A DNA stretch of 64,000 nt from Planctomycetia bacterium (GCA_036758585.1 DAIOWH010000003.1:6152-70151), one strand, 5' to 3'. Counted from the stretch's first letter, positions 1,471 through 48,873 are shown. The notes: generated by a model not told the origin, from the letters alone. Made by a program: numbers and translations.

Positions 1471-1493
1471 CGAATCACACGAATCACACGAAT
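1471..1493 (+). repeat. short tandem repeat (CGAATCACA x2 + CGAAT) abutting/overlapping ATG of downstream gene
   Basis: read directly: cgaatcaca cgaatcaca cgaatg. Confidence 0.5.
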
Positions 1494-2475
1494 GAAAAAC
1501 AGGACGCAGGCAAACAGGCGGGAACCACGAGGTCGATCTGCGTGGCACTTGCTTGAGCAACCGCCGGCGATCTTCGCATTCGTGTTATTCGTGCCATTCG
1601 TGGTTGTGGTTTGGTTGGCGTGCGGACAAGACGCCGCGTCAGCCGCGCGTCCCGCCCAAGACTCGACCGTTCAACGCTTGACCACCGACGGCAACCTGAA
1701 ACAGCATCCAGCCTGGTCGCCCGACGGCAAGTTGCTCGTTTGTACGATCTACCTCAAGGGCAAGGTTGGACTGGTTCAGCGGTCGTTGGATGTTGCGGAA
1801 TGGAAACATGTGACGCCGCTCGATGATAATCCGGAATACGAGCCGGTGTGGTCGCCCGACGGCGGGCGTATCGTGTTTGTGCAGGACTCGTTGTCGGGGA
1901 CCGACGGACAGCTTCGCCTCTACGTCATGAACGCGGATGGTTCGGAAGCGAAGCAACTGGTCGCGCCGGCGAACCGACCGAACCAAGACGAGCACCCGGC
2001 GTGGTCGCCCGACGGCAAGACCATCGCATTTACGACAACCCGCGCCGGCAACCAGGAGATATACCTGTGTGACGCCGATGGGTCGAACCTGCGGCGCATC
2101 ACGACGTCGCCCGGCGCCGACTCGCACCCGACCTGGTCGCCCGACGGCAAACAGCTCGCGTTTTGTTCGGTGCGGTTCGGCAACATGGAGATTTGTGCGA
2201 TGGGGGCCGACGGATCGGACGTGCGGCGACTGACCGATCACCCGGCGTTGGACTACGCGCCGAAATGGTCGCCCGACGGGCGTCACATCGCGTTCACAAC
2301 GACTCGCGACGGGGATTACGAGGTGTACTTGGTGCGCCCCGACGGCAGCGGGCTCGTGAACCTGACTCGCCACGCGGGGCTGGACAAGGACCCCGCGTGG
2401 GCGCCCGACGGGCGTTGGGTAACGTTTGTGTCGAATCGCGAGGGTCGATTTGACCTGTATCGAATTGGAATCTGA
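1492..2475 (+). CDS. TolB-like periplasmic beta-propeller protein (PD40 / WD40-like beta-propeller repeats)
   Basis: 327-aa ORF; N-terminal hydrophobic segment 'IFAFVLFVPFVVVVWLACG' then AxA site 'ASA'; at least 7 repeats of 'P(A/T/V)WSPDG(K/R)xIAF..R.G..EIY' (PD40 signature). Confidence 0.7.
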   Translation: MKNRTQANRREPRGRSAWHLLEQPPAIFAFVLFVPFVVVVWLACGQDAASAARPAQDSTVQRLTTDGNLKQHPAWSPDGKLLVCTIYLKGKVGLVQRSLDVAEWKHVTPLDDNPEYEPVWSPDGGRIVFVQDSLSGTDGQLRLYVMNADGSEAKQLVAPANRPNQDEHPAWSPDGKTIAFTTTRAGNQEIYLCDADGSNLRRITTSPGADSHPTWSPDGKQLAFCSVRFGNMEICAMGADGSDVRRLTDHPALDYAPKWSPDGRHIAFTTTRDGDYEVYLVRPDGSGLVNLTRHAGLDKDPAWAPDGRWVTFVSNREGRFDLYRIGI

Positions 2476-2965: not shown

Positions 2966-3108
2966 TGCGCTCCACACTGAAAGGGGTTTGAATTCGTTTA
3001 ACCCGCAGCCGCAGGCGAGGCACAACCAACGCCAGCCATGCCTCGCCTGCGGCTGCGGGTTAAACGACCGAAGCCGACTTCAGACCCTATTCAGTGTGGA
3101 GCGGTACT
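2966..3108. repeat. nested inverted repeat: perfect 26-bp stem / 16-nt loop hairpin (2997-3064) inside a 14-bp outer inverted repeat (2969-2982 / 3092-3105)
   Basis: TTTAACCCGCAGCCGCAGGCGAGGCA ... TGCCTCGCCTGCGGCTGCGGGTTAAA are exact reverse complements; CGCTCCACACTGAA / TTCAGTGTGGAGCG likewise; lies ~100-240 bp upstream of the giant-gene start. Confidence 0.85.
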
Positions 3109-3193
3109 AAGTCGTCCCGACGCGGCCTGTCGTGCATGGTCGCAAGGCGGGGATGCGTGACCGGGTTCAGTTCGAGGGGAAGAAGACGTCACC

Positions 3194-3198
3194 GAGGT
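3194..3198 (+). promoter_or_regulatory. Shine-Dalgarno GAGGT, 6 nt upstream of ATG 3205
   Basis: accGAGGTaagctcATG; same GAGGT core also precedes the second giant gene. Confidence 0.5.
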
Positions 3199-3204
3199 AA
3201 GCTC

Positions 3205-6200
3205 ATGAAGTGGTTCAGAAGACTGCTGTCGCGGAGCGCGGGACAAGAACACAAACGGTCGAGATCGCGCGGGCACGGCGAAACGAGGATGGCCGAGCGC
3301 CGCAGCGCGAGTCCGGGAACCGGCGGCACGCGCCGGCGGCGCACGGGGTCGAGCGACCACGAAGAGCGGCGTCTGGCGAAGCCGCACAAGTTCGCGCTGG
3401 AGCGACTCGAAGAGCGTGTGCTGCTGTCGAGCGACCCGATCAAGACTGCGGCCCTAGATCGACTGCAGACGGCCACCGTGTTGGACCAAGACACGATGAT
3501 CTGGGACAACCAGCAGTCGGACTTCGTTCCGGACGAATGGTTGGTTCGTTTCCGGCTCGACTCGGGATTGACGCCCGACCAGCAACGAGTGCAGGCCAGC
3601 CAGCGGCTTGCCACGCTGGCGCCGAATGCGACGCTGGGCGACTACCTGAACTCGCCGGGCCTGTTCGCAATCCAATCGCCGTCTTCGAGTCCCTCGGCGA
3701 TGGCCGCCCTGTTGAACAGCGCCGCCGATCTGGCGTACATCGAGCCGAACTTCGTCGGCACGTGGCTCGCGGTCCCGAATGATTCGCTGTTTGGCCAGCA
3801 GTGGGCGATGAACAACACAGGCCAGACGGGCGGTACGGTGGACGCCGACATCGATGCCGTGGAGGCATGGGACCTGACGACCGGTTCGGCGAGCGTCGTA
3901 GTTGCGGTGCTCGACTCGGGCGTTGACCTGACTCATCCCGATCTTGCCGCCAACATCTGGGTGAATCCGGGCGAGGTTGCAGGCAACGGGGTGGACGACG
4001 ACGGCAACGGCCTGATCGACGACATCAACGGCTTTGACTTCTTCAGCAACGACAACGATCCGAGCGACCCGCTGGGGCACGGTACTCACGTGGCCGGCGA
4101 CGTCGGTGCGGTGGGGAACAACGGAGTCGGCGTAGCGGGCGTCAACTGGACGACCGACATCATCGCGGTCAAGGTGGGCAATGCCGCGGGTCCGTCGATC
4201 ACCGCCACGACGGCGGGCATCAACTACATCACGGACCTGCGAACGAACCGTGGCATCAACGTGCGGGTGATGAACGCGAGCCTCAACCTGCCGTTCTCGC
4301 AGGCGCAACTGGATGCGATCAATGCCGCCGATGCCGCCGGCATCTTGTTGGCCGCGGCGGCGGGCAACTCAAACTCGAACATCGACGTCGTGCCCACCTA
4401 CCCCGCGAGCTACTCAGCGCCGAACATTATTTCGGTCGCCGCCACGACGCACAACGACGCGAAGGCGAGTTTCTCCAGCTTCGGCGCCAACTCGGTCGAC
4501 TTGGGCGCGCCGGGCGAGGACATCCTCAGTACGGTGCCAACCAGCGGCGCGCTCGGCGACCCGTCGGGCTTCCGGTCGTTGGATGGAACGTCGTTCGCGT
4601 CGCCGATCGTGGCGGGTGCGGCGGCGCTGGGATTCGCGATCAATCCGACCGCGACGCACACTCAAGTGCGCAGCGCGATGCTGAACACGGTCGACCCGGT
4701 CGCTGGGCTGTCTGGTCTGACCGCGACCGGTGGACGACTGAATCTGTACGCCATGCTTCAGGCGTTGCAGCCGTCGCCGCCGCCGTCGGTCACCGTCCCG
4801 GGCAGCGGCGGAATCTATCCGAACTTCGCCGCTCAGAACGAGCCGCAGGTCGTCGTACATCCGCTCGACGCCAGCTATGTCGTGGCGGCTTACAATGATC
4901 GTTCCGAGACCAACCAAAACGGCGTTTCGTATTCCAATGATTTGGGCAACACCTGGTACCACACCGGCGTGCCGTTGCCCGCGCTCGGTACGCTGGCCGA
5001 TACAACGGGCGATGATCCGAGCGTATCGTTCGACTCGCTGGGCCGGCTGTACTACGCATCGAGCGGACTGGAGCCTGACCCCAACGACCCGCTCGCGTTC
5101 CGGGTCGAGCCGAACCAAATCGACGTCAAGTCGTTCCAGCGATCAAACGGCATCTTCGTGAGCCGCAGTGATGATTCGGGCGCGACGTGGGGTGTGAACA
5201 ACACGACCAGCACCGCGACCGGCAGCAAGCCGGCCGTGGCGGTGTTCACAAACACCTTCAGCGGCTCCGGCGACGTGAACTTCGAGACCGGGCCGTTTTC
5301 GATCACCGACCGCACGCCGACCAGTCCGTTCCGCAATCGGGTTTACGTGGTGTGGACGCGGTATCATTCCACGGGCGGCGGCGACATCATGTTCTCCAGC
5401 TCGGCCGACGGGGGCGTTACCTGGAGCACCCCACCGCTGGTGATCACGCAAGGGGTGGCCGGCGCCGGGGCCGGCACCGCGTCCGTCGGCACGACGAACG
5501 TCAACGGCGCCCGCTTAGCCATCGCGCCCAACGGCGATTTGTTCGTGGCGTACAACGCGGGCGGACAGATCAACGTACACCGGTCGCGCGACGCGGGTCG
5601 CACCTGGACCGCGGCGACCACGCCGTTTGGCGCGGGTGCGGCGGTCGCCACCATCGGCAGCCCGCTGCCGAGCGGGAACTTCCGTACCAATGCGTTTCCG
5701 GACATCGAAGTGGGGCTCGATCCCACTACGTCGCTGGCGAATCTGTACCTCGCCGTCGCCGACGACCCCGATCAGATCGGCACCGGCCAGGAAGGCGGCG
5801 ACGTGTACTTCGTGCGGTCGCTCGACGCGGCCACGGTCGCCGACGCCAGCTTTGCGGCGGGCACGACCTGGGGCGCGCCCGTGAAGCTGAACAGCGACGC
5901 GGCGGGCAAGAACCAGACGATGCCGCAGATGGCCGTCGACGAGGTCGGCAACATTGGCGTCGTCTGGTACGACACGCGCAATGACGCCGGCAACCACGAC
6001 CTCGAAGTGTTCCAGCGATCGAGCACCGACGGCGGCGCGATGTTCGCGGCCGACGCCGTGCTGACGGCCGCCTCGTTCGATCCCGACACCGGCCAGTTCG
6101 TGGCCAACGCCAACTTCGGCGACCGCATCGGCCTGGCCGCGTTCGGGGCGACCGGCTACGCCGTGTGGACCGACTCGTCGGTCGGCGAGCAATCGATCTT

Positions 6201-9200
6201 CTTCCAGACGTTCTCGATCGGCACTCCCCCGGCTGTGACTGGGCCGCAAGTAGTCAACATCATGGTCCCCGGCGAGGACCCGCTTACGCCGGGCACGGTC
6301 TACGACCAGACCAATTTTCAGCAGAACTTCGAGCCGGTGAACGGACTGGCCAGCCCGGTCAGGCACCTGGTGATCCAATTCGACAAGCCGCTCGATCCGG
6401 TGTTTGCCGAAGATCCGCGCAACTACGACTTGCGCGCGACCGGCGGCGACGGACTGTACCACGTGCGCGTGGAACTGGCGCCGGGCAGCACGGGAGTCGG
6501 GCCGCTGCCCGCCATGGCTTTCACATCGCTGAACGTGGCTGACGGCGCGCTCGGAGGTCGCCAAACGCTCACCACCGGCTTTGGCGGCAACAGCGACCTC
6601 AAGTTCATCGCGTCGGATCCGGCGACCGCCAGCGGCAAGATTCGGGTTCGTTATGTCGCAGACGGCCTGGACGCGCCGCTCACCGTGGACGTGTTCGAGA
6701 ACGTTGCCAGCGGCACCACCGACATCACGGTGAACCTGGCCACCGATGAGTTCGGCACGGTGACCAGTACAGCGGGCGACGTCTTTACGCTGCTCAATAA
6801 CTTCGTCGGCGACGGCATTCTGGGCACCACCGACGACCGGCAGTTCAAGGTGACGCCGGTGTACAACCCGGCCACGCCGTTGTTTGGGGCGAACGGGCCG
6901 CTGGTTCCGACCGTCACGCTCTACATCGAAGCCGATTCGACCACCGGGCATCAGGCGCCGCTGAACCCAGGCAACTACCGGCTGGCGCTCGAGACCGAGA
7001 TCCTCGCCGACAACGGTAAAAGGCTGATCCCGCAGAACGACCCGGACGACGACGGATCGGCCGGGGCGATCCTCGACACCAACTTTGCCTTCGTCGATCG
7101 CAACGACGACCTGCTCGACGACACGCCGACGACTCGTGACGCCTATTACTTCAAGGTGGTGGTGCCGCCGCCCGATCCGGTCGACCCGACCACCGCGGGC
7201 CTCGTGTTTGTCGACCTCACCGACACGCAGAGCGACGCCCCCGGCGCGACGCCCACGCCCGGCACCGCCTCGAACCCGTTCGATTCGGTGCAAGAGGCGA
7301 TCACTCGCTCTGTGGCCGGCAGCACCGTTTTTGTGCGGTCGAACACCGCGGACCAGCCGTACGTCATCGACTTGGCCGCAGCCGATCCCGACAATCGGAC
7401 GCTGCGCATCGAGCGGCAGATGCGGGTGGTCTTCGAGCGCGGCGTGATCGTGAAACTGCGCGAGCGCAAGATCGAAGTGGCCGACGGCGGCATCCTGATC
7501 ACCCAGGGCGAGTTCAACGATCCGGTGGTGTTCACGTCGCTGACCGACGACTTCCACGGCGGCGACACCAACGGCGACGGCGAAAACACCCGCCCGCAAG
7601 CGGGCGAGTGGGCTGGCGTCGTTTTTCGCGCGAATAGCGACAGCCTGAACTCGCGCGTCGAGTTCACGCAACTGCGCTATGCGGGCGGGTTCGACGCGCC
7701 GTCCAGCGTGTCCAACCGGCAGCGATTCAGCCCGATCCACCTGGAGGGCGACACGACCGGCACGATCGGCTCGACGCCCACCATCGTCTCGAACCTGATC
7801 GTCGATTCGTCCGAGCCGGCGATTTCGGCCGACCTCGCGTCGCTCAGCGCGACCGGGCCGACCGGCGTGCCGAACAGCGGGCCCGACGTCCGCGCCAACC
7901 AGATCGGCCGCACGTCGATCAACGGCATGTTCATTCGCGTCGGCATCGATCCCAGTACCAACTCGTTGCGCACGCTGAACCGCGAGATGCGGCTCGACGA
8001 CAACACGATCACGCACGTGCTCACAGACAACCTGTTCATTGCAACGGGCGGCGTCACCCTGATGCCGGGCGTCAATCTCGAACTGTTCGGGTCGATGATC
8101 GACGTGCGCGACGGCACGTTCTTCGACGCGCTGGGGACGCCGCAGAGTCCGGTGGTGATCAGTTCGCTCAAGGACGACCGCACCGGCGTCGGCCCCAACC
8201 ACCTGGGCGAGCGTCAGGTCGATCAGAGCAACGACGGCAACAAGAGCCTGCAGTCGCTGGGCGGCGCAGCGTACGAGGAGTGGGGCGGCATCCGCTATAA
8301 CGCGAATACGCGCGGCGACCTGTTGAGCGCCACGATCGCGTTCGGCGGCGGCAGCGTGCCGTTTGCCGGCGAGTCGCGGGCATTCAACATGATCGAGGTG
8401 CTGGGCGCGCCGACCGCGACGCCGTCGCGGCCTACGTTCGTCAACATCCGCAACAGTGAGCTGCACCACGCGTCGGGCGCCGCCGTGTGGGTCGAGACCG
8501 GCGATATCAACCTGACCGGCAACATGATCCACGACACCCGCACCGCCGGGTTCGTTGACTTCCCCAACCACCCCGAACGAGTCGACCGCAACATCGGCGC
8601 CGCCGTCTCGGTCGATCCAAACACGCTCGACACCGACAGCTACGAGCCAGGCAACACCTACGAGGCCCTAGTCGAACCCGAAATCGTCGGCAATTCGTTG
8701 TTCCGCAACGTGATCGACGGCCTTGACATTCGCGGCCAACACACCGGCGCCGCGGCCAACGGCTCGATCCGCTCGGTCAACGACGGCTCGCTCTCAGTCT
8801 TTGGCCTGTGGGACGACGACGACATCACTCACGTGCTGCGCCGCGACATTCAGATCGGGTTTGCCAATCCGATCGATAGGCCGGTGCCCGTCAACCTGGC
8901 GGTCGGCCCTGGCGTAGTCGTCAAACTCGATCGGACGGTCGACATCACGGTGCTGGGCAGTTCGACCGGCCGGACGGCTGGCGTCGCGTCGAGCATGCAC
9001 ATCGTCGGCGCCGGCGCCGACCCCGAGGCGGTTCCGCCGCGCGACCCGAACCCCGTGCTGTTCACGTCGACCACCGACGACCTGGCCGAGGTCAGCGGCT
9101 TCGACATCGGCCCCGACCGGGCGCCCGGCACGCTCGGCGTCGACGACCCGGACATCAGCACCGGCCTGCCCAACGGCGTGATCGACGATCCCGGCGAAAT

Positions 9201-12200
9201 CGGCCGCGGCGACGATCGCCCGTTCACCGTCGGCGACGTGATGGACATCGGAGTCACCGTTGGCCCGACAACCGGCGCCCCCGCCGACTGGAACACCATT
9301 ACGTTCGAATACAACTCAGACGACTTGCCCGACGAGTTCTCGGCCGTCAAGGGCGGATCGATTGTGGATCACGCCGAGTTCCGGTTTGCTACCAACGCGG
9401 TCACGGCCAGCAGCATTCCGCGTCACACTCCGTTCGCCGCCGACTTCGTCGACCCCGAAGGACCGACAGGCCAGGGGGTCGATCAGCTTCTGCAGGAGGT
9501 AAACCCCCAGAACACGACCACCGGCGGCCTGCCGATCGTCGGCAACCTCGGGTTCGTGAACACCGGCGATTTCGCGCTCACGGGCAACAACGTCTCGCAC
9601 CAGACCACGATCCAGGTCGGCGGCCGCAGCTATAACCCGGCCATCACCGTCTCGGGCTGGATTGACGGCAGTGACGCGCGCCCCGCGGGCCACGTCGACG
9701 CCCTCACCGGCGGCCAGCGCGACGTCGATTGGTACATGTTCACGGCCGATCCCGGTTCGACCATCTGGGTCGATCTCGACTACATCGGCGCCTCGGACAC
9801 GCTCGACGCACAACTCACGCTGTTCCGGTTTCAGCGGGTCACCACCACGTGCGAGCCTGAGGTGATCGCGTACGACGACACCGACAACCGGGTCGGCGGT
9901 ACGCCCCAAGACCGCGTGTCGAACGCCGGCACCACGACGCAGTCGCTCGGCCTGCACGATCTCGAGCCGTACTACGGCAATGACCCCACGTTCCGGCGCA
10001 ACGAAGATCCGCTGATCGGCCCGATCACCTTGCCGGCCAGCACGTGCCAGGGCAACCAGTACATGATCGCCGTGTCGCCGATCAACTACGACGCCGACAA
10101 CATGCGCGGCCTGAACGGCACGCCCGATACGCCGCTCAGCATCGTGCCGCTCCGCGACGGCGGCTACGCCGTGAACCTGCCGAACTCGTCGGGCCGGGCC
10201 ACGGGCTTCGACGACGTCTCCGAAGGCGCATCGAGCGGCACGGGCCAGTACACGATCGAGCTGCGCACCTTCACGCGCCAGACCGACACCAACATTCCCT
10301 CAGCGCTGGAAGATCCGACCCAGAGCGACGCGCGCATCGACGCCGCCGCGAACCAGTACCTCGACAGCTCGGTCTCGGTGCTGCGCGGCAACGGCGAAGA
10401 CCCGCCCGGCCTTGGCGAGGGATACCTGCAGAACAGCACCACCGACCTCGGTACGTTCAACCCGGTCACCGGCACATGGACGATCTCGGTCACCGACAGC
10501 TCCGGCCCGCTGTTCGCTCAGCCGCCTGCGACGAGCGTATCGTTCTTCTTCGACGCGCCGGCCAGCACGCCCCTGGTCGGCGACCTCGACGGCGACGGCG
10601 ACGACGACCTGGCCACGTTTAGCCCGTCCGAGGCCAGTTGGACGCTCGACCTCGACGGCGACCGGTTCCTGACCGAAGACCGCAACGGCGACTTCTATCT
10701 CGATTCGGGCGAAGACATCAATCAGAACCTGGTGCTTGACACCGACTCGGGCGAGATCGGCGTGTTCTTCGGCGGCGCCGGCGACCTGGCCGTCGTGGGC
10801 GACTGGAACGGCGACGGCGTCGATAAGCTCGGCGTCTTCGGCGACGAAGACCTGAACAACAACAACGTGCTCGATGACGGCGAAGACACCGACGGCGACG
10901 GCGCGATCGACGTCGGCATGTGGACCGTCGATTACAACGGCAACCGCACGATCGAGCGCGGCGAGCGCGGCATCCTGTTCCGGCCCACGACCGGCACGAC
11001 CGCCGATTGGCGGCCGCTGGTCGGCGATTGGAACGGCGACGGCCGAGACGATCTGGCCGTGTACGACCGGTCGACCGGCAACTTCTTCATCGACCTCGAC
11101 GGCGACCGCACGCTTGATTGCGGAAGGGACGTGAACTGTGCGACACCCGACGTGGGCAACGAGCAGTTTGACTTCGGCGCGGGCCTGACCGCCTCGGCAG
11201 TGCCGATCGTCGGCAACTGGGATCCAGTCGGCCCCGCAGCCCGCGACCGCGACGACGACATCGGCGTGTTCGATCCGACGACGGCCACGCTGCGTCGCGA
11301 TCTGAACGGCGACCGCATCTTGCAAGCGGGCACCGAGCAGACGACGTACTTCGGCGCTCCGAACGCAGCCGACCAGCCAGTGGTCGGCGATTTCGGCGCG
11401 GCTGCGACCCCAGTCTTTGGCGTCTATCGGCCCGGGTCGAATGAGTTTTTCCTCGACACCAATGACAACGGCACGAGCGCCGGCGACACAAACCCAACGG
11501 GCTGGACCGGCATGGCCGCCGGGCAGCTTGGCGTGGTCGGCGATTGGAACGGCGGCGGCGTCACCGACGTCGGCGTGTTCACCCCGCGTGGCACGGTCGG
11601 CCCGTTCCTGGGCGATTGGAATATCGACCTCAACGCCAACGGGACCAACGACGAAGTCACCCTGTCGTTCGACCGGTTCCGCTCGATTCCAACGACGGGC
11701 GATTGGGAAGGCGACGGCGACCTGAATGCGGGCGTGTACCTGCCCTCGAGCGGCACGTGGTACCTCGACATCGACGGCAACGCGCCCGATGTGGCTAAGG
11801 CGAACAGTGCGAACCCAACCGCCACGACGGTGGCGACGACGGCCGCGCCGGGATTCCGCGAAGGTCCGTTTCTGATCGGCGCCGCGGGCAACGTGCCAGT
11901 CGCGCGCGATTGGGACGGCGAGGGCACGACCGATCTGGGCACGTACGATCGCCGCCGCGGGGCGTGGACGCTCGACCTCAATAGCAATCGCCGGCTCGAC
12001 GTCTCGGTCGAGACCAACATCGTGTTCGGCGGCGCGGGCGGCATCCCGATGCCGGCCGATTTCGACGGCGACGGCCGCGCGAACCTGGCCGTCTATCACG
12101 AAGATCTAGTGCTGCCGCCGCCCGAGCCGCGTGTGGGGCGCTGGTACTTCGACCTGAACGACAACTTCCAGGTCGATCCGGGCGAGGACGCCAAGCCGTT

Positions 12201-15200
12201 CGGCCCGCGGTTCGGTCGGCCCGCCGCGGGCGACTTCGACCTCGACTTCCACCTGTTCGGCGCGGCCGGACCGCTGCGCAGCGACGGCACCGATCAGATC
12301 GTGGTGTACGGCAGCGAGGACTACGACGGCGACGGCTCGCGAGACGCCAGCCTCACTGTCGATGGTTTCACCTTCGATGAAGACGTCAACGGCGACGGCG
12401 ACGTAAACGATTTCGTCTGGTACGTCGATCTCAATCAGAACCGCCGGTTCGACAGCCTGACGGAACGCATCGTGCCGAACCTGGTGAACGAGAACACGTC
12501 GAACAACACCGCAGCGACCGCGACGCCGATCGCGACCCGCCAGATCGGCCAAGGCGCGCTCACGGTCACCGACGTCGACTTCTGGGCCGCGTCGGGAGCG
12601 ACCGCCGGACAGCTTGTCTTCGCCTACGTCGACACGCAGCTTTCCACCAGTAGCACCGACTCGCGGCTGAGCGTGGTCGCCAACAACGGAACCACGGTGG
12701 TCGAGGCCGACGACAACGACGGGCCGGGTTCGCGGGCGGTCGTCGCCGGCGCGGTGGTGCCGCAGGCGGGCAAGGTGTTCTACCAGGTGGATGAACCGGT
12801 CGGCGCCGCAATCGGTTCGTATCAGCTCTACAGCACGGTCACGTCCAGTTTGGGGTTCACCGCTGAAGTCGATCCCAACGGCACGTCGGCCACGGCGACC
12901 GCCTTGAGCGGCGACGAGCTGAAGGGAAGCGGAACGGTTGGCGTCGGCGACGTCGACTTCTTCTCGTTCCAGGCGCTGGCCGGCAGCCGCATCGTCGCCA
13001 TCGTCGATGAGAATCCGGACGACGACGCAAGCAACACGACCGTGGCGATCGAGCTGCGCGGTCCCGACGGGACGACCGTGCTGGCGTCCGGGGACAATGC
13101 GGCGGGCGACGCCGAGGCTGCGGGCGCGGTCTTGTCGGTGAGCCAATCGGGCACGTACTTCCTGCGCGTCGCCGAGGTGGCCGGCAGCGCCGACACGGAG
13201 TATCGCTTCGTCGTACTGGTGTACGACGTGAACCAAAACACCGCTCAGTTGCCGTACATCGGCGATTTCGACGGCGACCGAGCGGCCGATCTGGGCACGT
13301 TCCAGCCCAAGGCGACGCTGACCCCAGACCCAACCGGTTCGGCCAACGACCTTGTGACCTTCACGGCGCGCGAGCCGGGCACGGCGGGCAATAACCTGCG
13401 CGTGCAGTACGTCGCGCAGGTGACCGATGGCGCCGCCAGCGTGGCGGTCGCGGGCAACGATATTACGATCACGCTGGCACGAACGGGCGGCGTGAACATG
13501 ACCGCGGCGGCGTTGGTCCAGTTCCTGCTCACCGATTCGTCGGCAGGCGCTCAGGCGGCGCGGCGGCTGGTCGATGTCGCGGTCGCGCGTGGCACGAGCG
13601 GCGGCGACGCGCTCGGCGCGTTCGGCCCGACCAACCTGACCGGCGGCGGCACTCTGCAGTTCGATCGCGACGGCAACCGCACCAACGATCCGGGCGAGAC
13701 GACGACGGCCGCTTCGACCCCCGCCACTCAAGGCGCCGACGCGGCGTTTGGCGTGCCCGGCCGCTGGGAGCACGATGCCGGCGAGTTCCTGGTCGGATCG
13801 AACGTCCAGGACCTGACGCTTTCGGACCTGGACAACGACGGCAACCTCGACCTCATCGCCGTCAGTCGCGACTCGTTTGCGACCACGTCGACGGTCAGCG
13901 CGGCGACGACCGACTTGGCGGGCGTGACAATCCGCTACGGCACCGGGCGCGGCGGGTTCGAGCGGACCGAACAGCGCTGGACCGCGGGCGTGGCGCCGAT
14001 GGCGGTCGCCGTGGCCGACATGAACGGCGACGGGCTGGGCGACATCGTGGTTTTGAACACGCACGATGTGAACCCGACCGACAACTCGGCGGGTAGCATC
14101 AGCGTGCTGCGCAACCAGGGCGCTCGGTCGTTCGTGCGCGACGACCCGAACACGAACCCTGCGGGCCTCCAGGCGTGGCAGACCGGCGGCGTCGCCCCGC
14201 GCGACCTGGTGCTGGGCGACTTTATTGCCATCGACCGCACCACCGGCGCGACCATGCTCGGCCGCGACGGTTTCCCCGACGTCGCCGTGGCCAACTTCGG
14301 CAACCCCGACCCGAACAACCTCGACGCCTGCACCTCGTTGTCGTGCAACGTCGCGGTGATGCCAAACCGGACCGGTTTTACCGGCACGACGCCGGGCGCG
14401 GTCATCACCTTCCCGGCGGGCGGCGGGGCTGTGGCCACGCCCGTGCCGGCCTACACGCGCAACAACCGCCCGACGTCGATTGCCGCCGCCGACCTGAACG
14501 GCGACGGCTATCTCGACCTGGTGACGGCCAACGCCAGCGACATTGCCAACACCAACGGCACGACCGTCACGGTGCGGCTCGGCCAAGAGAACGGCTCGTT
14601 TATCGTCAATGATCTGGACACGAACACGACCTCGACGACGCAGCACTCCAGCCTGAGTCCGTTCGGGCAGGACCCGGCGGGCATCGCGGTGGCGACCGAG
14701 GTTCAGCCGCTGTTTGGGTTCCGCCAGACCGGGGCGGGCAACACCGCCGTGCAGGCGCAGCGGGTCAATCCGGTAAACGCCCAGTCGACGAACATCCCGG
14801 GCGCGACCCAAGACGTCATCGTCCAGGGCTCGGCCCGCATGCCCGATGGGCTGAACAACCAGGCGTTTGTGTTGGCGCAGAATGAGCGTCAGACGATCAC
14901 GCTCGCCTTCGCCACGGGATCGGCCACCTACACGCTGTTCTTCATCAATCAGGTCACCGGCCCGATCGCCGACAATGCGTCGGCGGCGACTGTGCAAGCG
15001 GCGCTCGAGGGGCTTTCGACGATCGGGGCGGGCAACGTGTCGGTAACCGGCCCGAATGGCGGCCCGTACACGGTGGACTTCCAGGGTGCTCTTGCGTCGC
15101 AAGACGTTCCTCAGCTTGTGGCGACGCCGACGGCGCCGCTTACGGTCACGGTCGGCGCGACCCGCGGCGGCAGCGCCGCCACCGACGCCGGCCGCATTTA

Positions 15201-18200
15201 CGTGAGCGGCACGGATACCAGCACGCCGAACACCGACACCGCTTACAGCGACGCCGCCGGCAATGTGATCGCGCATCGGCTCTATGTGTTGGACCAAAAC
15301 ACAGGCCAACTCGTCCACCCAGTCACGGGTGCTGCGGGCCAAGGGCTGGCGTTCTTTGAAGACCCGTCGGAACGGTCGCAGGCCAGCGCCATCGTGGACA
15401 CCACGGCCGTTCCTGGCGGCGCCGGGCAGCCCGGGCCGGGCGGTGCACGGATCCGGATCACCGCTTCGGAGAACATCCCGGGAATTCAAGGCAATGCGAT
15501 GCGCATTGTCTTTTCGATGAATACAGCCAGCACCGAGACGACCGTAACGGCGAATTGCAACGAGCTTCTGACACTCAACGTCGCATTGGGCAGCGACGGA
15601 ACCAACGTCACGGCCACGAACGCCCAAGTACTCGCCGCACTGAACGCGGCGACCTTCGCGGGCGGCCGGCGCCTGTTGTATGCCGAGTTGATCACGGGCG
15701 TGCTGAACGACAACTTCCTTGGCGACTTCGACAGTTCGAACAACGCCACGGCCCCTCCGCCGGTGGACAACGTGGCGTACTATTCGGCCACGCTGTTTCC
15801 GGCGACTCCCGGTCCGCAGCGGTTCCTGCTCGATGATGTGAACAATAGCGCCGTCGTCACGGGTCCCTTCAATGGCACGTTTACGAACCAGCCGTTCTCG
15901 GGCGGCAGCGGCGGCAGCTTCCACGACGCCCAGTTGGACATCCGTGGTTTGGCAATCCATCCGGGCCCCGGTCCGTTGGCCGGCCAGTTGTTTGGGATCA
16001 TGGGCGGTCCGCAGCGTCTTTTCCCCGCCCCGACCGCGCCGTTTGCGCCGGGCGATCCGCGAAACTTCCAGACGGGTCCGGTCAACGACGGCAACGCGGC
16101 GACTCAGGAAGGCAGTGTCACCGGGCAGTTCGGCGTCGGCGGCTCGTTCTATCTCATCGATCGTCAGACCGGCAAGGTAAGCGTCATGGGTTCGAGTTGC
16201 CAGGTGGCCTTTCCCGAAGGCCTGGCGTTCCGGCCCAACGGGACCGGTCTGAATCCGAACCAGGACCTTGCGGCGGCAACGTTGGCGGACCAGCAGCCCA
16301 CGTTGTTCGCGACCGACGCCGAGTTCCTGCCGGGGTTCGCCACGTCAACGCCTCAGAACTCGACCTTGGTGTACTTGCAGTACACGCCGACTGCCGACTT
16401 CCTGACCAATCAATCCACTTACGTCCCATCGGGCACAAACGCAGGGCCGGGGAGCTGGAACGCCCCGACGGTCACGAACGGCGCCGGGCACCTCTGGCAG
16501 CTCGACCTCACGGGCAACCGCGTGGTCACGCCGCCGCAAGAAAACCAGTTCACCTTTGGTCTGCAGCCGGACGTGGTCCCGATCACGGGCAATTGGGACG
16601 CGCCACGGGCGAACGAGGTGCAGCGGGTCACACTGACGGGCGGCAACACCGGCACTCAGAACTTTACGCTGACGTTCAATGGCGAGACCACGACGGACAT
16701 TGCGGACAACGCCAGCGCCGCCACCGTGCAAACGCGACTGCAGGCGCTGATGGGCGTCGTCGGCAACGTATCCGTCGCCGGCCCGGACGGCGGCCCGTAC
16801 GACGTCACGTTCCGCGCCGGGTTTGCCCGCACCAACGTGCCGCAGATGACGGCTTCGGCTGCTGCGCCGCTTGCGGTGGCGGTGACCACCACGACGCAGG
16901 GTGAAGGCGACGAAGAAATCGGCGACTTCAACACGGCCACCGGCGTGTGGGTGCTCGACTTGAACGGCGATCGGGCCGCGCAGGCGAATGAGATGTCTAT
17001 TGTCTATGGCGTCCGCACCGCCCGAGTCACCACCAGCATCGCCGGCGACGACAACGACCTGGTCTTTACCTCCAGGTTGTCCACGCCGGTCGGGCCGAAT
17101 TTCACGGTTCAGTTGGTCGATCCGCTTCTGGCCAATCAGGCGCTGACCATGGCGGTGACCGGTACCAGCCTGGTCATCAACCTGGCTACGAACGCCACGC
17201 CGGTGGTAACCACCACGGCCCAAGACATCATCGACTGCATCATGAACCTGGTGGTGAATGCGTGCAGTTCGTCGGCGGGCGCCGCGGCCGCGCGGGCGTT
17301 GGTCAGCGTGGCGCTTACGGCGGACGATCAAGCGGCCGGCACCGGCAACACAGGCGCCAGCGCGGTCGCCGCGTTTGGGCCGCGAGACTCGCTGCATGTC
17401 CGGCTCGAATCGCCTGTCGTCGGCGATTGGAACGGCGACGGCATCGACAACATCGGAACATTCGATCGCGGGACCGGCACTTGGACAATCGACCTCGACG
17501 GCGATTTCCGAATCGACGCCGGCGAACAGTTCGGCGGCTGGCTGATCGCGACGGGCCTTCAGGCGATCGTGGGCGACTGGGACGCCGATGGCGTGCGCGA
17601 CGACTTTGCAGTCTACGACAGCGTGTCCGGCGCGCTGGCCGTGGACCTGAACGGCAACCGCGTAATCGATCTGCCGGGCGAGCTGTTCGGCGGCCTCACC
17701 GGCCCGAGCGTTAGCGTTTCCAAGTTCTTCGTCGACCTGTTCGCCCAGCCGGGCGCCATACTCGACGGGCCTGGCGGCGTCGCCGTCGACGCCAGCGGCA
17801 ATGTCTATGTCAGCAGCTTCACCACCGACACGGTCGTCCGATTCAACTCGTTCGGTCAAAACCCCACTACGTTTATCACGGCGAACTTGGGCGGCATGGA
17901 CGGACCGGCGGGTTTGGCGCTGCAGGATGTAAACGCGGACGGCACGGAAGACTTGTTCGTGGCCAGCTTCAACACGAACCAGATTTACGTCTACGATGGA
18001 GCTGCCGGGACTTTGCTGTTCAACTCCGCAATCGGTAGCGTCACGGGGCCAGTTGGGGTCGAGGTCGGGCCGGACCGTAACTCCGATGGCCTGGGCGATA
18101 TTTTTGTCTCCGCCAGCGGAACCGATACGGTGCTGATCTTCGATGCGGCTCCCGCCGGTGCGGGCGCTTCGTTGGGCGTCATGGTGACGGCCGCCACAGC

Positions 18201-48621: not shown

Positions 48622-48861
48622 TCGGCAATATGTTGTAAGAATGCAACGCGCCGCTAGGTTGGGTGGGATGTACCAGCACGGCGGGTGGGCGGTGGCCTGC
48701 GAGGCGGCGTGTCGGCCGTTGGACTACAGCCTGAGAATGGAACTGTCGAAGTTCCAGCATGTCTCCGGGGGGAGGCTCTCCACGCCTGACGTTTTGCGGG
48801 CGGCCTTGATCGCCCGTGTTCTGCTTCCGCCGGTTACGGACAGGGGCGTTTTTTGGGAATC

Positions 48862-48866
48862 GAGGT
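48862..48866 (+). promoter_or_regulatory. Shine-Dalgarno GAGGT 8 nt upstream of ATG 48874
   Basis: tcGAGGTccaacaaATG. Confidence 0.5.
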
Positions 48867-48873
48867 CCAACAA

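What the first reader, a model, noticed from the sequence alone, without database searches (positions are those of the whole stretch)
3205..3435. Shared non-canonical N-terminus: Arg/Lys-rich leader plus 'LERLEERVLL' motif, with no hydrophobic signal peptide
Gene 1 begins MKWFRRLLSRS...HKRSRSRGHGETRMAERRSASPGTGGTRRRRTGSSDHEERRLAKPHKFALERLEERVLLSSD. Gene 2 (48874-48996) begins MTRPGSVNRPPHLKAKRRTPRKSSGQGMSLERLEERVLLALD. Both share the exact decapeptide LERLEERVLL. Neither has any hydrophobic h-region before the first catalytic domain, although the domain content (BNR, NHL, Ig, vWA, PPC) is clearly extracellular. The motif resembles the short N-terminal motif reported on many predicted extracellular Planctomycete proteins, which I recall as a 'Planctomycete extracellular' motif family. 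Its export mechanism is, as far as I know, not established. Here it sits on proteins of more than 15,000 aa, which makes the export question acute.
Basis: partly seen in the sequence, partly recalled or inferred. Interest (0 to 1): 0.65.

Follow-up and report, generated by a model that had tools for sequence, protein, structure and literature searches.

The report
Non-Sec export leader on giant proteins
Two giant surface proteins begin with a known, signal-peptide-free leader motif, and comparative genomics points to a specific, previously orphan SecA-like/TolC-type secretion machine as its likely exporter, which makes the old question of how these proteins are exported testable.

Summary
Gene 1 (3205-48621, 15,138 aa) and gene 2 (48874 to beyond the window) both start with a Lys/Arg-rich leader followed by LERLEERVLL. 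No possible start codon gives either one a hydrophobic signal-peptide core. The motif is not new. It belongs to the class described by Pfam PF07595 (Planc_extracel, Studholme 2004) and NCBIfam NF012209 (LEPR-XLL), and here those two models hit overlapping sets of one aligned motif. Among 120 subtilase homologues of gene 1, motif and classical signal peptide are mutually exclusive (p=1e-12). This supports a role as a signal-peptide substitute. The new lead concerns the exporter. In Verrucomicrobiota, a Magnetococcales-like MAG and 25 of 49 informative metagenome loci, a long gene starting with this leader lies directly beside a conserved module: TolC-like OMP, HlyD adaptor, GAF/HlyD, M50-protease/HlyD fusion and a short SecA-like ATPase. 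Kamneva et al. (2015) described this module, also in Planctomycetes including R. baltica, but named no function or substrate. A profile built from the module-adjacent cargo leaders scores gene 1 at 25.6 bits and gene 2 at 15.3 bits, against 9 bits or less for controls. I found no paper making this link. The window contains no module gene, so the link to this organism is inferred.

The parts
3205..48621 (+). Gene 1: 15,138-aa giant secreted or surface protein
   Evidence: ORF 3094..48621. ATG at 3205, preceded by GAGG. Domains. Composition is acidic overall (D+E 11.6%, K+R 4.7%), Cys is 0.28%, and there is only one RTX nonapeptide match in the whole protein.
3205..3396 (+). Gene 1 basic leader, aa 1-64 (19-20 K/R, 4 H, 6-7 D/E); predicted disordered
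   Evidence: AlphaFold2 gives pLDDT<50 for nearly all of residues 1-92. Homologues have leaders with a median of 20 aa and 24% K/R. This leader is the longest one seen; Met29 (nt 3289) is a possible alternative start.
3391..3453 (+). Gene 1 LEPR-XLL / Planc_extracel-type motif (FALERLEERVLLSSDPIKTAA; core LERLEERVLL at 3397-3426)
   Evidence: NF012209 match at aa 63-83, 23.6 bits against a cutoff of 17, and 27.1 bits on the isolated segment. Scores 25.6 bits with an HMM built from module-adjacent cargo leaders, against 9.0 or less for 174 negative controls.
3487..3759 (+). Gene 1 I9-like subtilase propeptide (aa ~95-185)
   Evidence: AlphaFold2 model shows a beta-alpha-beta-beta-alpha-beta unit at high pLDDT directly before the S8 domain. 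The same region aligns in 36 homologues. Calling it I9-like is my reading of the fold; no Pfam I9 hit was obtained.
3892..4695 (+). Gene 1 Peptidase_S8 catalytic domain (aa 230-497)
   Evidence: Pfam PF00082, E=1.5e-44.
48874..64000 (+). Gene 2: giant protein of more than 5,042 aa, cut off by the window end
   Evidence: Open frame from ATG 48874 to the window end, with an in-frame stop 28 codons upstream. Domains.
48874..48960 (+). Gene 2 basic leader, aa 1-29 (8 K/R, 0 D/E)
48961..49005 (+). Gene 2 motif LERLEERVLLALDIP
   Evidence: Scores 15.3 bits with the cargo-leader HMM against 9.0 or less for controls. No hit to NF012209 or PF07595.
49447..49719 (+). Gene 2 Peptidase_M10 (matrixin-like) domain (aa 192-282)
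   Evidence: Pfam PF00413, E=2.3e-8.

Best explanation
Both N-termini are cases of a known leader that lacks a signal-peptide core. It consists of a disordered Lys/Arg-rich stretch followed by [LV]-E-x-L-E-x-R-x-L-L-[SA]-x-x-P, and is described by Pfam Planc_extracel and NCBIfam LEPR-XLL.

What is shown: the leader occupies the position of a Sec signal peptide and substitutes for it.

What is inferred from gene neighbourhoods: it is the N-terminal targeting signal for an envelope-spanning apparatus resembling a type I secretion system, in which the ABC transporter is replaced. The components are (1) a short SecA-like ATPase that keeps the motor and preprotein-binding domains but lacks the scaffold, wing and two-helix finger; (2) an inner-membrane M50-type HExxH metalloprotease fused to a HlyD-like adaptor; (3) a GAF/HlyD protein; (4) a second HlyD/RND-type adaptor; and (5) a TolC-like outer-membrane channel.

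Proposed sequence of events, all inferred. The leader is bound by the SecA-like preprotein-binding domain and/or the M50 domain. ATP hydrolysis threads the unfolded polypeptide N-terminus first through the inner-membrane component and the adaptor/TolC duct. The M50 domain may clip off the leader, as the C39 peptidase domain does in double-glycine-leader exporters.

In Planctomycetes the leader has spread to dozens of proteins per genome, so cargo genes such as these two need not lie next to the machine.
For: A. Signal-peptide substitute.
- Of the top 120 homologues of gene 1 aa 1-520, 46 carry the motif at aa 5-48 after a K/R-rich leader. Their median maximum hydrophobicity is 1.61. The other 74 lack the motif and mostly have classical signal peptides (median 2.51).
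- With a KD9>=2.2 threshold the split is 3/46 against 52/74, Fisher p=1.2e-12.
- Named motif-bearers are Planctomycetota. Named signal-peptide bearers come from other phyla.

B. One motif class.
- 30 of 45 aligned N-termini hit PF07595 and 15 of 45 hit NF012209.
- Position +2 varies freely: S, P, D, A, E or T.

C. N-terminal context is specific.
- An N-terminal K/R-leader context on a long ORF was seen in 41/55 Planctomycetota matches against 7/66 elsewhere, p=4e-13.

D. Link to the module.
- Opitutaceae D2-102 locus L123: SecA-like, OEP, then a 3,989-aa protein starting MRQARPSRPDQLHLEPLEPRLLLSAE.
- Rariglobus hedericola locus L125: GAF/HlyD, M50, SecA-like, then a 9,126-aa protein with SLEALETRMLLSATP.
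- Magnetococcales-like MAG loci L126 and L127: OEP, MFP, GAF/MFP, M50/HlyD and SecA-like, divergent from a giant gene (5,221 or 12,871 aa) starting MVAKKHKMNRSSHGPFQVEKLEERILLSADP. This start hits NF012209 at 26.5 bits.
- In 80 metagenome loci found with the M50/HlyD marker, SecA-like follows the marker in 46 of 49 loci that have at least 2.5 kb downstream.
- A long ORF starting with the leader follows on the same strand in 25 of those 49 loci, and in 22 of 35 loci with at least 6 kb downstream. All are downstream and on the + strand. These comprise 21 distinct leader sequences, since several loci are near-duplicates. A reversed-sequence control gave 0 hits in 1 Mb.
- 18 of 19 distinct cargo leaders hit NF012209 and 13 of 19 hit PF07595 weakly.

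E. The window's leaders are of the cargo type.
- The cargo-leader HMM gives gene 1 25.6 bits and gene 2 15.3 bits. The maximum over 174 shuffled or non-motif controls is 9.0.

F. The module exists in Planctomycetes.
- Kamneva 2015 Table S2 lists R. baltica RB142/144/146, B. marina, P. staleyi, P. brasiliensis (two loci) and Phycisphaera mikurensis.
- Pirellulaceae MAG L053 has an M50/HlyD homologue (E=3e-58) 1.3 kb from a 1,337-aa motif gene.

G. Component features fit leader handling.
- The SecA-like protein aligns only to SecA residues ~63-545, that is NBD1, PPXD and NBD2. Pfam finds SecA_DEAD, SecA_PP_bind and P-loop_SecA but no SecA_SW.
- The M50 half keeps HEFGH and NxNPLxxxDG. Its closest NCBIfam models are RiPP leader-processing intramembrane proteases: daptide, and YydH/LiaK.

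H. Literature fit.
- Chlorochromatium giants Cag_663 and Cag_665 carry N-terminal LEPRxLL, flank a TolC-like gene, follow a SapC gene and 'lack known signals'.
- SapC is a recurrent neighbour of the module.
Against: - No module gene lies in the 64-kb window or in the 5 kb further upstream seen in L001. The genome of origin is unavailable.
- Among 54 Planctomycetota motif loci (8-kb blocks), only one (L053) had a module gene nearby. In that phylum the link therefore rests on co-occurrence and not on adjacency.
- Kamneva et al. found the module in 'some' Planctomycetes only. I could not check whether motif-rich genomes such as Tuwongella or Gemmata have it.
- About half of the informative module loci show no leader-bearing gene in the sequence available.
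- Adjacency shows that the giant proteins are the cargo. It does not prove that the N-terminal motif is the recognition element, as opposed to a C-terminal one.
- A Vibrio LEPR-XLL protein has C-terminal RTX and serralysin domains.
- AlphaFold gives no confident helix for the motif, so I do not claim a structural mechanism for recognition.
- There are no experimental data on the module.
Confidence: 0.55

Rival explanations
1. The proteins are classical type I secretion substrates. A C-terminal signal is recognised by an ABC transporter with HlyD and TolC, and export runs C-terminus first. The N-terminal motif is then not the secretion signal. It would be a retention, anchoring or stalling element that keeps the giant protein tethered in the TolC duct, like the LapA or MpIBP retention module.
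For: - T1SS substrates have no N-terminal signal peptide.
- A Vibrio ~8,000-aa LEPR-XLL protein has C-terminal RTX and serralysin domains.
- TolC-like and SapC genes flank the LEPRxLL giants of Chl. chlorochromatii, and the authors propose C-terminus-first export.
- The module contains HlyD-type and TolC-type parts.
- Both window proteins are acidic and low in Cys.
Against: - Gene 1 has one RTX nonapeptide match in 15,138 aa, no HemolysinCabind hit and no recognisable C-terminal signal.
- The motif also heads ordinary 450-900-aa subtilases whose closest homologues use Sec signal peptides at the same position, ahead of a propeptide that should emerge first to chaperone folding.
- The conserved module has no ABC transporter but does have a SecA-like motor with a preprotein-binding domain and a leader-peptidase-like M50 domain.
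Confidence: 0.15
2. The leader is a cryptic Sec signal. The K/R-rich stretch serves as the n-region, and 'xLL[AS]A...' plus the following small or aliphatic residues serve as a weak h-region. The planctomycete's canonical but rearranged SecA with SecYEG accepts it. Outer-membrane passage then uses a type II-like or other system.
For: - Many homologues continue with LLAADLAAIG-type, mildly hydrophobic stretches (KD9 up to ~2.0).
- The positively charged n-region is classic for Sec signals.
- Canonical SecA of all Planctomycetes examined except K. stuttgartiensis has a rearranged SecA_SW domain.
Against: - In the two window proteins the segment after the motif is polar: SSDPIKTAALDR and ALDIPEGAHP. 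Maximum KD9 is 0.63 and 1.57, with no uncharged run.
- The core itself has three invariant charges (E, E, R).
- The same genome uses ordinary h-regions on neighbouring genes.
- Motif and h-region are anti-correlated, not combined.
- Outside Planctomycetes the same leader sits next to a non-Sec machine.
Confidence: 0.1
3. The leader is an export or sorting signal for some other machinery, still unidentified and possibly specific to Planctomycetes. The adjacency to the SecA-like module in other phyla would then reflect a different use of a similar-looking motif.
For: - Only 1 of 54 planctomycete motif loci had a module gene nearby.
- The planctomycete-type variant (RRL..LEDRRLLA, strong PF07595 hits) and the giant-protein variant (LEPRxLLSADP, strong NF012209 hits) are distinguishable. 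Module-adjacent leaders hit PF07595 only weakly.
- T. immobilis motif proteins fractionate with the SDS-soluble cell-envelope fraction, and no exporter is known.
Against: - The two models overlap on one aligned family, and gene 1 is of the giant-protein type.
- R. baltica, where the motif was defined, encodes the module.
- L053 shows the M50/HlyD gene beside a motif gene in Pirellulaceae.
Confidence: 0.15
4. The shared decapeptide is a chance or purely structural (coiled-coil-like) feature of cytoplasmic or mis-annotated N-termini and has no role in targeting.
For: The bare peptide pattern does occur inside cytoplasmic proteins. Examples are actinobacterial RF2 (VEELEVRTLLSGEYD), FtsY, and recurrent antisense frames in high-GC genomes.
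Against: - Those occurrences are internal, with no K/R leader.
- N-terminal context is enriched 41/55 against 7/66.
- 7 of 10 codons differ synonymously between the two window copies.
- The motif is mutually exclusive with signal peptides.
- Domain content is extracellular.
- Proteomics places T. immobilis motif proteins in the envelope fraction.
Confidence: 0.02

Closest known systems
Pfam PF07595 Planc_extracel ('Planctomycete extracellular' motif; Studholme, Fuerst & Bateman 2004; consensus RRLxxExLExRxLLA)
   Same: N-terminal position, preceding basic residues, the ExLExRxLL core, extracellular-type domains downstream, no h-region, Planctomycetota host. 30 of 45 homologous N-termini hit the model. 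In T. immobilis, 8 of the 10 longest proteins carry the motif.
   Different: Neither window peptide reaches the model at all. They have E at the variable position, no RRL immediately upstream, and S/L instead of A-A after LL.
NCBIfam NF012209 LEPR-XLL ('LEPR-8K') N-terminal domain of giant proteins
   Same: A 24-residue N-terminal motif on proteins of many thousands of aa. Gene 1 passes the curated cutoff. The ...LLSxDP tail is shared with module-adjacent cargo.
   Different: Gene 2 does not reach the model. The family is described mostly outside Planctomycetes, for example in Vibrio and Chlorochromatium.
Secondary SecA_DEAD / Peptidase_M50-HlyD / GAF-HlyD / HlyD (+OEP, SapC) module of Kamneva, Poudel & Ward 2015 (PMC4452313)
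   Same: This is the gene set I found next to leader-bearing giant genes. [quoted passage not shown]
   Different: The paper names no substrate and calls the biological role 'completely unknown'. The cargo and leader link is my inference. No module gene is in this window.
Double-glycine-leader exporters (peptidase-containing ABC transporters with a C39 domain, plus HlyD-type adaptor and TolC; e.g. colicin V CvaAB-TolC). Comparison from established knowledge.
   Same: A cleavable N-terminal leader without an h-region. A leader peptidase built into the inner-membrane exporter. An adaptor plus TolC duct, with one-step export.
   Different: The motor would be SecA-like, not ABC. The peptidase is M50-type HExxH, not C39 cysteine. 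Cargo is up to more than 15,000 aa, not small peptides. The leader has no GG site. Leader cleavage here is untested.
Classical RTX type I secretion of giant adhesins (HlyA, LapA, MpIBP, SiiE)
   Same: Giant, acidic, Cys-poor repetitive surface proteins without an N-terminal signal peptide. Uses TolC-like and HlyD-like parts.
   Different: Gene 1 has no RTX repeats or recognisable C-terminal signal. The module has no ABC transporter. The conserved element is N-terminal.
Gram-positive accessory Sec systems (SecA2/SecY2) for giant serine-rich adhesins with unusual extended N-terminal signals. Comparison from established knowledge, with SecA2 context.
   Same: A dedicated SecA paralogue is paired with very large adhesins that carry atypical N-terminal signals.
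   Different: Those signals still contain a hydrophobic core, use a SecY2 channel and retain the SecA scaffold and wing domains. Here the scaffold and wing are absent and the partners are HlyD- and TolC-type.

Membership tests
Pfam PF07595 Planc_extracel | HMM score at or above the gathering threshold (25.5 bits) | tested here: not met
   No hit at E<=10 for either window N-terminus, as 150-aa or as 30-aa peptides. A positive-control consensus peptide scored 34.8 bits.
Pfam PF07595 Planc_extracel | Core ExLExRxLL within the first ~70 residues, preceded by basic residues | tested here: met
   Gene 1 aa 66-74 and gene 2 aa 31-39. Leaders have 19-20 and 8 K/R. The core aligns column for column with 43 homologues, of which 30 hit PF07595.
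Pfam PF07595 Planc_extracel | Found on proteins with extracellular-type domains in Planctomycetes | tested here: met
   Domains. Neighbouring DUF1501 and PD40 genes and named homologues point to Planctomycetota. The organism itself was not identified; the source is metagenomic.
NCBIfam NF012209 LEPR-XLL | HMM score at or above the curated cutoff (17 bits) | tested here: met
   Gene 1 scores 23.6 bits at aa 63-83 and 27.1 bits on the 35-aa segment. Gene 2 has no hit, so this is met for gene 1 only.
NCBIfam NF012209 LEPR-XLL | Located near the N-terminus of a very large protein (thousands of aa) | tested here: met
   Gene 1 is 15,138 aa and gene 2 is more than 5,042 aa.
Sec (type I) signal peptide | Hydrophobic h-region of about 7-15 uncharged residues after a basic n-region | tested here: not met
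   Maximum KD9 is 0.63 and 1.57, with no uncharged hydrophobic run of 8 or more in the first 120 aa. In-window controls score 3.2 and 2.0. Upstream stops exclude a longer N-terminus. SignalP was not available.
Tat signal peptide | Twin-arginine motif (S/T-R-R-x-F-L-K) followed by an h-region | tested here: not met
   RR pairs are present, but no h-region follows. The neighbouring DUF1501 protein shows what a Tat-like signal looks like in this genome (TRREFLQAGSLGALGL). TatP was not run.
RTX-type type I secretion substrate | Tandem GGxGxDxUx repeats near the C-terminus (Pfam HemolysinCabind) | tested here: not met
   Gene 1 has one isolated regex match at aa 9666 and no PF00353 hit. The C-terminal 400 aa are shown. 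The C-terminus of gene 2 lies outside the window, so that gene is not testable.
Cargo of the secondary SecA_DEAD / M50-HlyD module (proposed here) | N-terminal leader matching the profile of module-adjacent cargo proteins | tested here: met
   Gene 1 scores 25.6 bits and gene 2 scores 15.3 bits. The maximum over 174 negative controls is 9.0.
Cargo of the secondary SecA_DEAD / M50-HlyD module (proposed here) | Gene lies adjacent to the module | tested here: not met
   tblastn with all five module proteins finds nothing in the window or in L001 and L002.
Cargo of the secondary SecA_DEAD / M50-HlyD module (proposed here) | The genome encodes the module somewhere | not testable with these tools
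   Only 64 kb plus a 6.8-kb overlapping contig are available. Indirect support: five planctomycete species in Kamneva Table S2, and Pirellulaceae L053.
Canonical SecA (applies to the module ATPase, not to a window gene) | Presence of the helical scaffold, wing and two-helix-finger (SecA_SW) needed to dock on SecY | tested here: not met
   Pfam finds only SecA_DEAD, SecA_PP_bind and P-loop_SecA in 120 of 120 family members. The alignment to solved SecA structures stops at about residue 545-560 of ~800. All NCBIfam SecA and SecA2 models score below cutoff.

The most novel reading that the evidence does not exclude
The LEPR-XLL / Planc_extracel leader is the long-sought cognate signal of the orphan 'secondary SecA' module. 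Together they would form a distinct secretion pathway that resembles type I secretion but is driven by a SecA-like ATPase with an M50-type leader peptidase in place of an ABC transporter. It would be specialised for giant proteins (4,000 to more than 36,000 aa) across Verrucomicrobiota, Proteobacteria, Chlorobi, Nitrospirae and Myxococcota. In Planctomycetes it would have expanded into a general export route for dozens of surface proteins per genome, including the two in this window.
Probability: 0.5. Interest if true: 0.8.

Novelty: new member of a known kind. Interest (0 to 1): 0.6.

Why it matters
How Planctomycetes export their many 'signal-less' surface proteins has been open since 2004. 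The same question applies to how any bacterium moves 15,000-36,000-aa proteins across two membranes.

The window feature itself is a further example of a catalogued motif. Tracing it led to a concrete candidate machine that is already described in the literature but has no known function or substrate. If the link holds, three things follow:
- It assigns a function to a widespread orphan gene cluster.
- It defines a new way of energising a TolC-type duct.
- It explains the export of some of the largest known bacterial proteins, including the Chlorochromatium symbiosis giants.

The hypothesis can be tested now by knockouts and leader-reporter fusions in tractable hosts that carry the module.

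There is also a practical point for annotation. Gene callers can clip the leader (seen in L125). Regex scans need the N-terminal context to avoid false positives such as RF2.

Tried and rejected
1. Pfam scan of the window N-termini for PF07595 gave no hit. The model was shown to be present in the library with a control peptide.
2. Profile search of the 5.8-billion-protein database with a motif-only alignment (A2) returned one hit at E=7. The motif is too short for that database size, and one capped search was lost. Searches were parameter errors.
With a 4-sequence alignment, 187 stretches matched [LF]ERLEER[VR]LL but none passed the tblastn confirmation. Its counts are therefore a sample and not a census.
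4. I looked for secretion genes next to gene 1. Upstream are only DUF1501 and PD40, and further out FtsH and an unknown 430-aa gene. Nothing secretion-related was found.
5. I looked for SecA-like, OEP and other module genes in 120 motif loci. Only L053 had one.
6. Amphipathic-helix idea: the hydrophobic moment is moderate (0.30 and 0.44), and AlphaFold predicts nearly all of residues 1-92 at pLDDT<50 with no helix at the motif. I therefore do not claim a helix.
7. Signal-peptidase-like cleavage after LL[AS]A: the window sequences (LLSS|D, LLAL|D) do not fit an AxA rule, so I dropped the idea.
8. I searched the T. immobilis proteome supplement for SecA, M50 or HlyD near motif proteins. The stored file is truncated and uninformative.
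9. Literature searches for any paper linking the motif to the module found none. The library holds open-access papers only, so absence is not proof.


Full report
**1. Observation**

The quoted sequences are exact. Gene 1 is a single 15,138-aa ORF. The frame opens at 3094, and the ATG at 3205 follows a GAGG. Gene 2 starts at ATG 48874, 252 nt after the gene 1 stop, and runs off the window after 5,042 aa.

LERLEERVLL is aa 65-74 of gene 1 and aa 30-39 of gene 2. At the DNA level 7 of the 10 codons differ, all synonymously. The identity is therefore maintained at the protein level.

A sliding Kyte-Doolittle window (9 residues) over the first 120 aa peaks at 0.63 for gene 1 and 1.57 for gene 2, with no uncharged hydrophobic run. 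Two neighbouring genes in the same window show ordinary targeting signals. The PD40 protein has a 22-residue h-region (3.2). DUF1501 has a Tat-like TRREFLQAGSLGALGL. In-frame stops lie just upstream of both genes, so no alternative start could add a signal peptide.

The leaders are strongly basic: 19-20 K/R in 64 aa for gene 1 and 8 K/R in 29 aa for gene 2. The mature proteins are acidic (D+E about 11.7%, K+R about 5%).

**2. Anatomy of the two proteins**

- Gene 1: leader (aa 1-64), motif (65-78), linker, an I9-like propeptide (about 95-185), Peptidase_S8 (230-497), then BNR_2, FG-GAP, PPC, NHL, MAM and LamG domains, and at the C-terminus 16 Big_13 and 10 Big_6 Ig-like domains.
- Gene 2: leader, motif, Peptidase_M10 (192-282), beta-helix, LamG, NIDO, BNR.
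- vWA was not detected.
- AlphaFold2, run with a 37-sequence alignment, models residues from about 95 onward at high confidence. Nearly all of residues 1-92, motif included, come out below pLDDT 50. The leader therefore behaves like an unstructured targeting peptide. I do not claim a helix.

**3. What the motif is**

The Pfam model PF07595 (Planc_extracel) does not hit either window peptide, although a consensus control peptide scores 34.8 bits. NCBIfam NF012209 (LEPR-XLL, 'LEPR-8K') does hit gene 1 above its cutoff.

I collected 120 homologues of gene 1 aa 1-520. Of these, 46 carry [LV]ExLExRx[LM][LM][AS]A at aa 5-48 behind a K/R-rich leader. When the motif segments were scanned one by one, 30 of 45 hit PF07595 and 15 of 45 hit NF012209. 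The two curated models therefore describe one aligned motif family whose +2 position is free (S, P, D, A, E or T). 'LEDR' is the R. baltica flavour, 'LEPR' is the giant-protein flavour, and the window has 'LEER'.

The literature describes the motif in these terms:
- Studholme et al. 2004 proposed it as a novel export signal.
- In Tuwongella immobilis 52 proteins carry it. Twenty were detected by proteomics, 8 of them only in the SDS-soluble envelope fraction. Eight of the ten longest proteins have it.

**4. Does it replace a signal peptide?**

The 120 subtilase homologues form a natural experiment. Motif and h-region are mutually exclusive. With a KD9>=2.2 threshold, 3 of 46 motif-bearers pass (one is a regex false positive) against 52 of 74 non-bearers (Fisher p=1.2e-12). 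Most low-scoring non-bearers are N-terminally truncated fragments. Named motif-bearers are Planctomycetota. Named signal-peptide bearers are Sulfurifustis, Myxococcaceae, Nitrospirota, Shewanella and Pseudoalteromonas. In both groups the element sits directly ahead of the same propeptide-S8 unit.

**5. Specificity and taxonomic range**

I ran a degenerate DNA pattern for [LV]ExLExRxLL[AS] over one genome per species for 185,579 species. Of 121 matches, 55 were in Planctomycetota. An N-terminal, K/R-leader, long-ORF context was found for 41 of 55 there, against 7 of 66 elsewhere (p=4e-13).

The other hits are mostly unrelated:
- an internal helix of actinobacterial RF2 (VEELEVRTLLSGEYD);
- FtsY;
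- recurrent antisense frames in high-GC genomes.

So the bare peptide does occur in cytoplasmic proteins, but not in this N-terminal context. Genuine non-planctomycete cases were:
- a Myxococcota protein with motif, DUF4347 and 12 cadherin domains (more than 2,376 aa, L037);
- a Burkholderiales protein (L049);
- an Opitutaceae protein (L088).

**6. The lead: a cognate machine**

In L088 the leader-bearing gene is immediately preceded, on the same strand, by a TolC-like OEP gene and a 662-aa SecA-like gene. That SecA-like family has at least 1,095 members of about 650-680 aa. All have SecA_DEAD, SecA_PP_bind and P-loop_SecA, and none has SecA_SW. The protein aligns to solved SecA structures only over NBD1, PPXD and NBD2.

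Neighbourhoods of four family members show one recurring gene set: OEP, an RND/HlyD-type adaptor, a GAF/HlyD protein, a protein of about 718 aa, the SecA-like ATPase, and a giant gene of 3,989 to 12,871 aa. In the 718-aa protein the N-terminal half is an M50-type HExxH intramembrane protease and the C-terminal half is HlyD-like. Its closest NCBIfam models are RiPP leader-processing proteases.

Every giant-gene N-terminus visible in these loci carries the leader:
- MRQARPSRPDQLHLEPLEPRLLLSAE (L123);
- SLEALETRMLLSATP (L125), which lies upstream of the called start;
- MVAKKHKMNRSSHGPFQVEKLEERILLSADP (L126 and L127), almost the window's LERLEERVLLSSDP.

For statistics I used the M50/HlyD fusion as a marker in metagenome contigs. 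At least 493 relatives were found and 80 loci (1.0 Mb) were returned. The results were:
- SecA-like follows the marker in 46 of 49 loci with at least 2.5 kb downstream.
- A long ORF beginning with the leader follows on the same strand in 25 of 49 loci, and in 22 of 35 loci with at least 6 kb downstream. These comprise 21 distinct leader sequences, since several loci are near-duplicates.
- All of these ORFs are downstream and on the + strand.
- A reversed-sequence control gave no regex hit in 1 Mb.
- 18 of 19 distinct cargo leaders hit NF012209, and 13 of 19 hit PF07595 weakly.
- An HMM built only from these module-adjacent leaders scores window gene 1 at 25.6 bits and gene 2 at 15.3 bits. The best of 174 shuffled or non-motif controls scores 9.0.

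**7. What is already known about the module**

Kamneva, Poudel & Ward (2015, PMC4452313) described exactly this cluster: 'secondary SecA_DEAD domain proteins' with Peptidase_M50/HlyD, GAF/HlyD and HlyD proteins, and sometimes OEP and SapC. They found it in some Planctomycetes (R. baltica RB142-146, B. marina, P. staleyi, P. brasiliensis at two loci, Phycisphaera mikurensis), Verrucomicrobia, Proteobacteria, Nitrospira and one Chlorobi. They proposed that the SecA-like protein replaces the ABC ATPase and that the M50 protein forms the membrane part. They stated that the biological role is 'completely unknown' and named no substrate.

R. baltica is the species in which the motif was defined. SapC and a TolC-like gene also flank the Chlorochromatium LEPRxLL giants. 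West-Roberts et al. (2023) note SecA_DEAD and PP_bind domains without scaffold or wing inside Omnitrophota giant proteins.

No paper in the searchable library connects the leader to the module. NCBIfam has no dedicated model for any module component. NCBI names for the SecA-like protein are inconsistent ('prepilin peptidase', 'DEAD/DEAH box helicase', 'hypothetical').

**8. Mechanism: what is shown and what is inferred**

Shown here:
- the leader exists, is conserved under selection, is N-terminal, and lacks an h-region;
- it is mutually exclusive with Sec signal peptides in one enzyme family;
- in several phyla, long genes starting with it lie next to the module far more often than chance allows;
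- the window's leaders match the cargo-leader profile.

Inferred:
- the leader, and not a C-terminal element, is what the machine recognises;
- the SecA-like PPXD and/or the M50 domain binds it;
- transport runs N-terminus first through an adaptor/TolC duct;
- M50 removes the leader;
- this planctomycete has the module and uses it in trans for these two genes.

**9. Weak points**

- The window has no module gene and the genome is not available.
- Only one of 54 planctomycete motif loci (L053, Pirellulaceae) shows an M50/HlyD gene nearby.
- The module was reported in only some Planctomycetes.
- About half of the informative module loci show no cargo gene in the available sequence.
- A Vibrio LEPR-XLL protein carries C-terminal RTX domains.
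- In L125 the nearest OEP gene belongs to a divergent operon that includes an ABC ATPase.

These points keep the classical-T1SS rival and the 'other machinery' rival alive.

**10. Verdict**

The finding is correct and its interpretation is sound. As stated, however, it is a new instance of a catalogued motif (PF07595 and NF012209), so in itself it is not novel. Its value lies in where it leads. There is a well-supported, apparently unpublished association between this orphan leader and an orphan SecA-like, TolC-type secretion module. That association turns 'export mechanism unknown' into a specific hypothesis that can be tested genetically.

Noticed in passing
window 2968-3103 (+), 100-240 nt upstream of the gene 1 ATG: A 29-nt perfect inverted repeat (2994-3022 / 3039-3067) is nested inside a second 29-nt, 86% inverted repeat (2968-2996 / 3075-3103). 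Together they form a hairpin of about 136 nt (dG -104 kcal/mol, z=-13.3 against shuffles). It is unique in the window and has no Rfam family; only spurious sub-threshold miRNA hits appeared. It could be a 5'-UTR or terminator structure or a palindromic mobile element. Function unknown.
   Followed up: partly
window 3487-4695 and 49447-49719: Both giant proteins place a protease domain directly after the leader: I9-like propeptide plus S8 in gene 1, and M10 matrixin-like in gene 2. West-Roberts et al. also noted S8 domains near the N-termini of giant proteins. This suggests self-processing of the giant polypeptide after export.
   Followed up: no
L125:12212 versus the called start at 12311 (Rariglobus hedericola, GCA_007559335.1): The gene caller started the 9,126-aa gene downstream of the leader motif. 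The motif lies 19 codons after the upstream stop, with no ATG before it. Leaders of this class are probably clipped systematically in annotations, so the motif will be under-counted.
   Followed up: partly
L123 and L124 (Opitutaceae D2-102, GCA_051209135.1, one 3.33-Mb contig): One genome carries two complete copies of the SecA-like, M50/HlyD, adaptor and OEP module. Each copy lies beside its own giant gene (3,989 aa and 6,328 aa). The two SecA-like paralogues are 50% identical.
   Followed up: partly
L009, L011, L014, L027, L033, L034, L084, L085, L093, L102; also L004, L006, L015, L017, L025, L031, L032, L041, L050, L062, L065, L083, L090, L116: The bare peptide pattern recurs internally in what appears to be release factor 2, mainly actinobacterial (my reading of the sequence, not tested) (VEELEVRTLLSGEYD). 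It also recurs in an Arg-rich frame '...LALERLEQRRLLAADVG' that looks like the antisense strand of a conserved gene in high-GC genomes. Both are traps for regex-based genome scans for this motif.
   Followed up: no
L037:1-7128 (-) (Myxococcota MAG DASUFZ010000103.1): A protein of more than 2,376 aa begins with the leader (LVEELERRILLSAG), followed by DUF4347 (aa 79-236) and 12 cadherin domains. DUF4347 may be a common first domain after LEPR-type leaders outside Planctomycetes.
   Followed up: no
L053:350-2599 (+) and 3937-7950 (-) (Pirellulaceae MAG CAZNXJ010000009.1): This is a planctomycete example of an M50/HlyD homologue (749 aa, E=3e-58 to the Magnetococcales-like protein). It lies 1.3 kb from a convergent 1,337-aa gene that starts with ...LEALEDRRLLAF. 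No SecA-like gene is present in this 8-kb block.
   Followed up: partly
window 63-1442 (+) and 1492-2475 (+): The genes upstream of gene 1 encode DUF1501, with a Tat-like signal after a TTG or alternative start, and a PD40 beta-propeller protein with an N-terminal membrane anchor or signal. The same pair, preceded by FtsH and an unknown 430-aa gene, occurs on ENA contig ERZ27245623 k141_49148. That contig extends the locus 3.6 kb further upstream.
   Followed up: partly
window 48622-48873: Only 252 nt separate the gene 1 stop from the gene 2 start on the same strand, and the inverted-repeat scan found none in this gap. The two giant genes may be co-transcribed, giving a transcript of more than 60 kb.
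   Followed up: no
Kamneva 2015 Table S2 and Chl. chlorochromatii Cag_662: SapC-family genes recur 4-10 genes away from the secondary SecA gene in Ruegeria, Magnetococcus (two loci), Methylobacterium, Bordetella avium, Achromobacter and Thioalkalimicrobium. One also precedes the LEPRxLL giant Cag_663. SapC may be a further, unrecognised component of the system.
   Followed up: no
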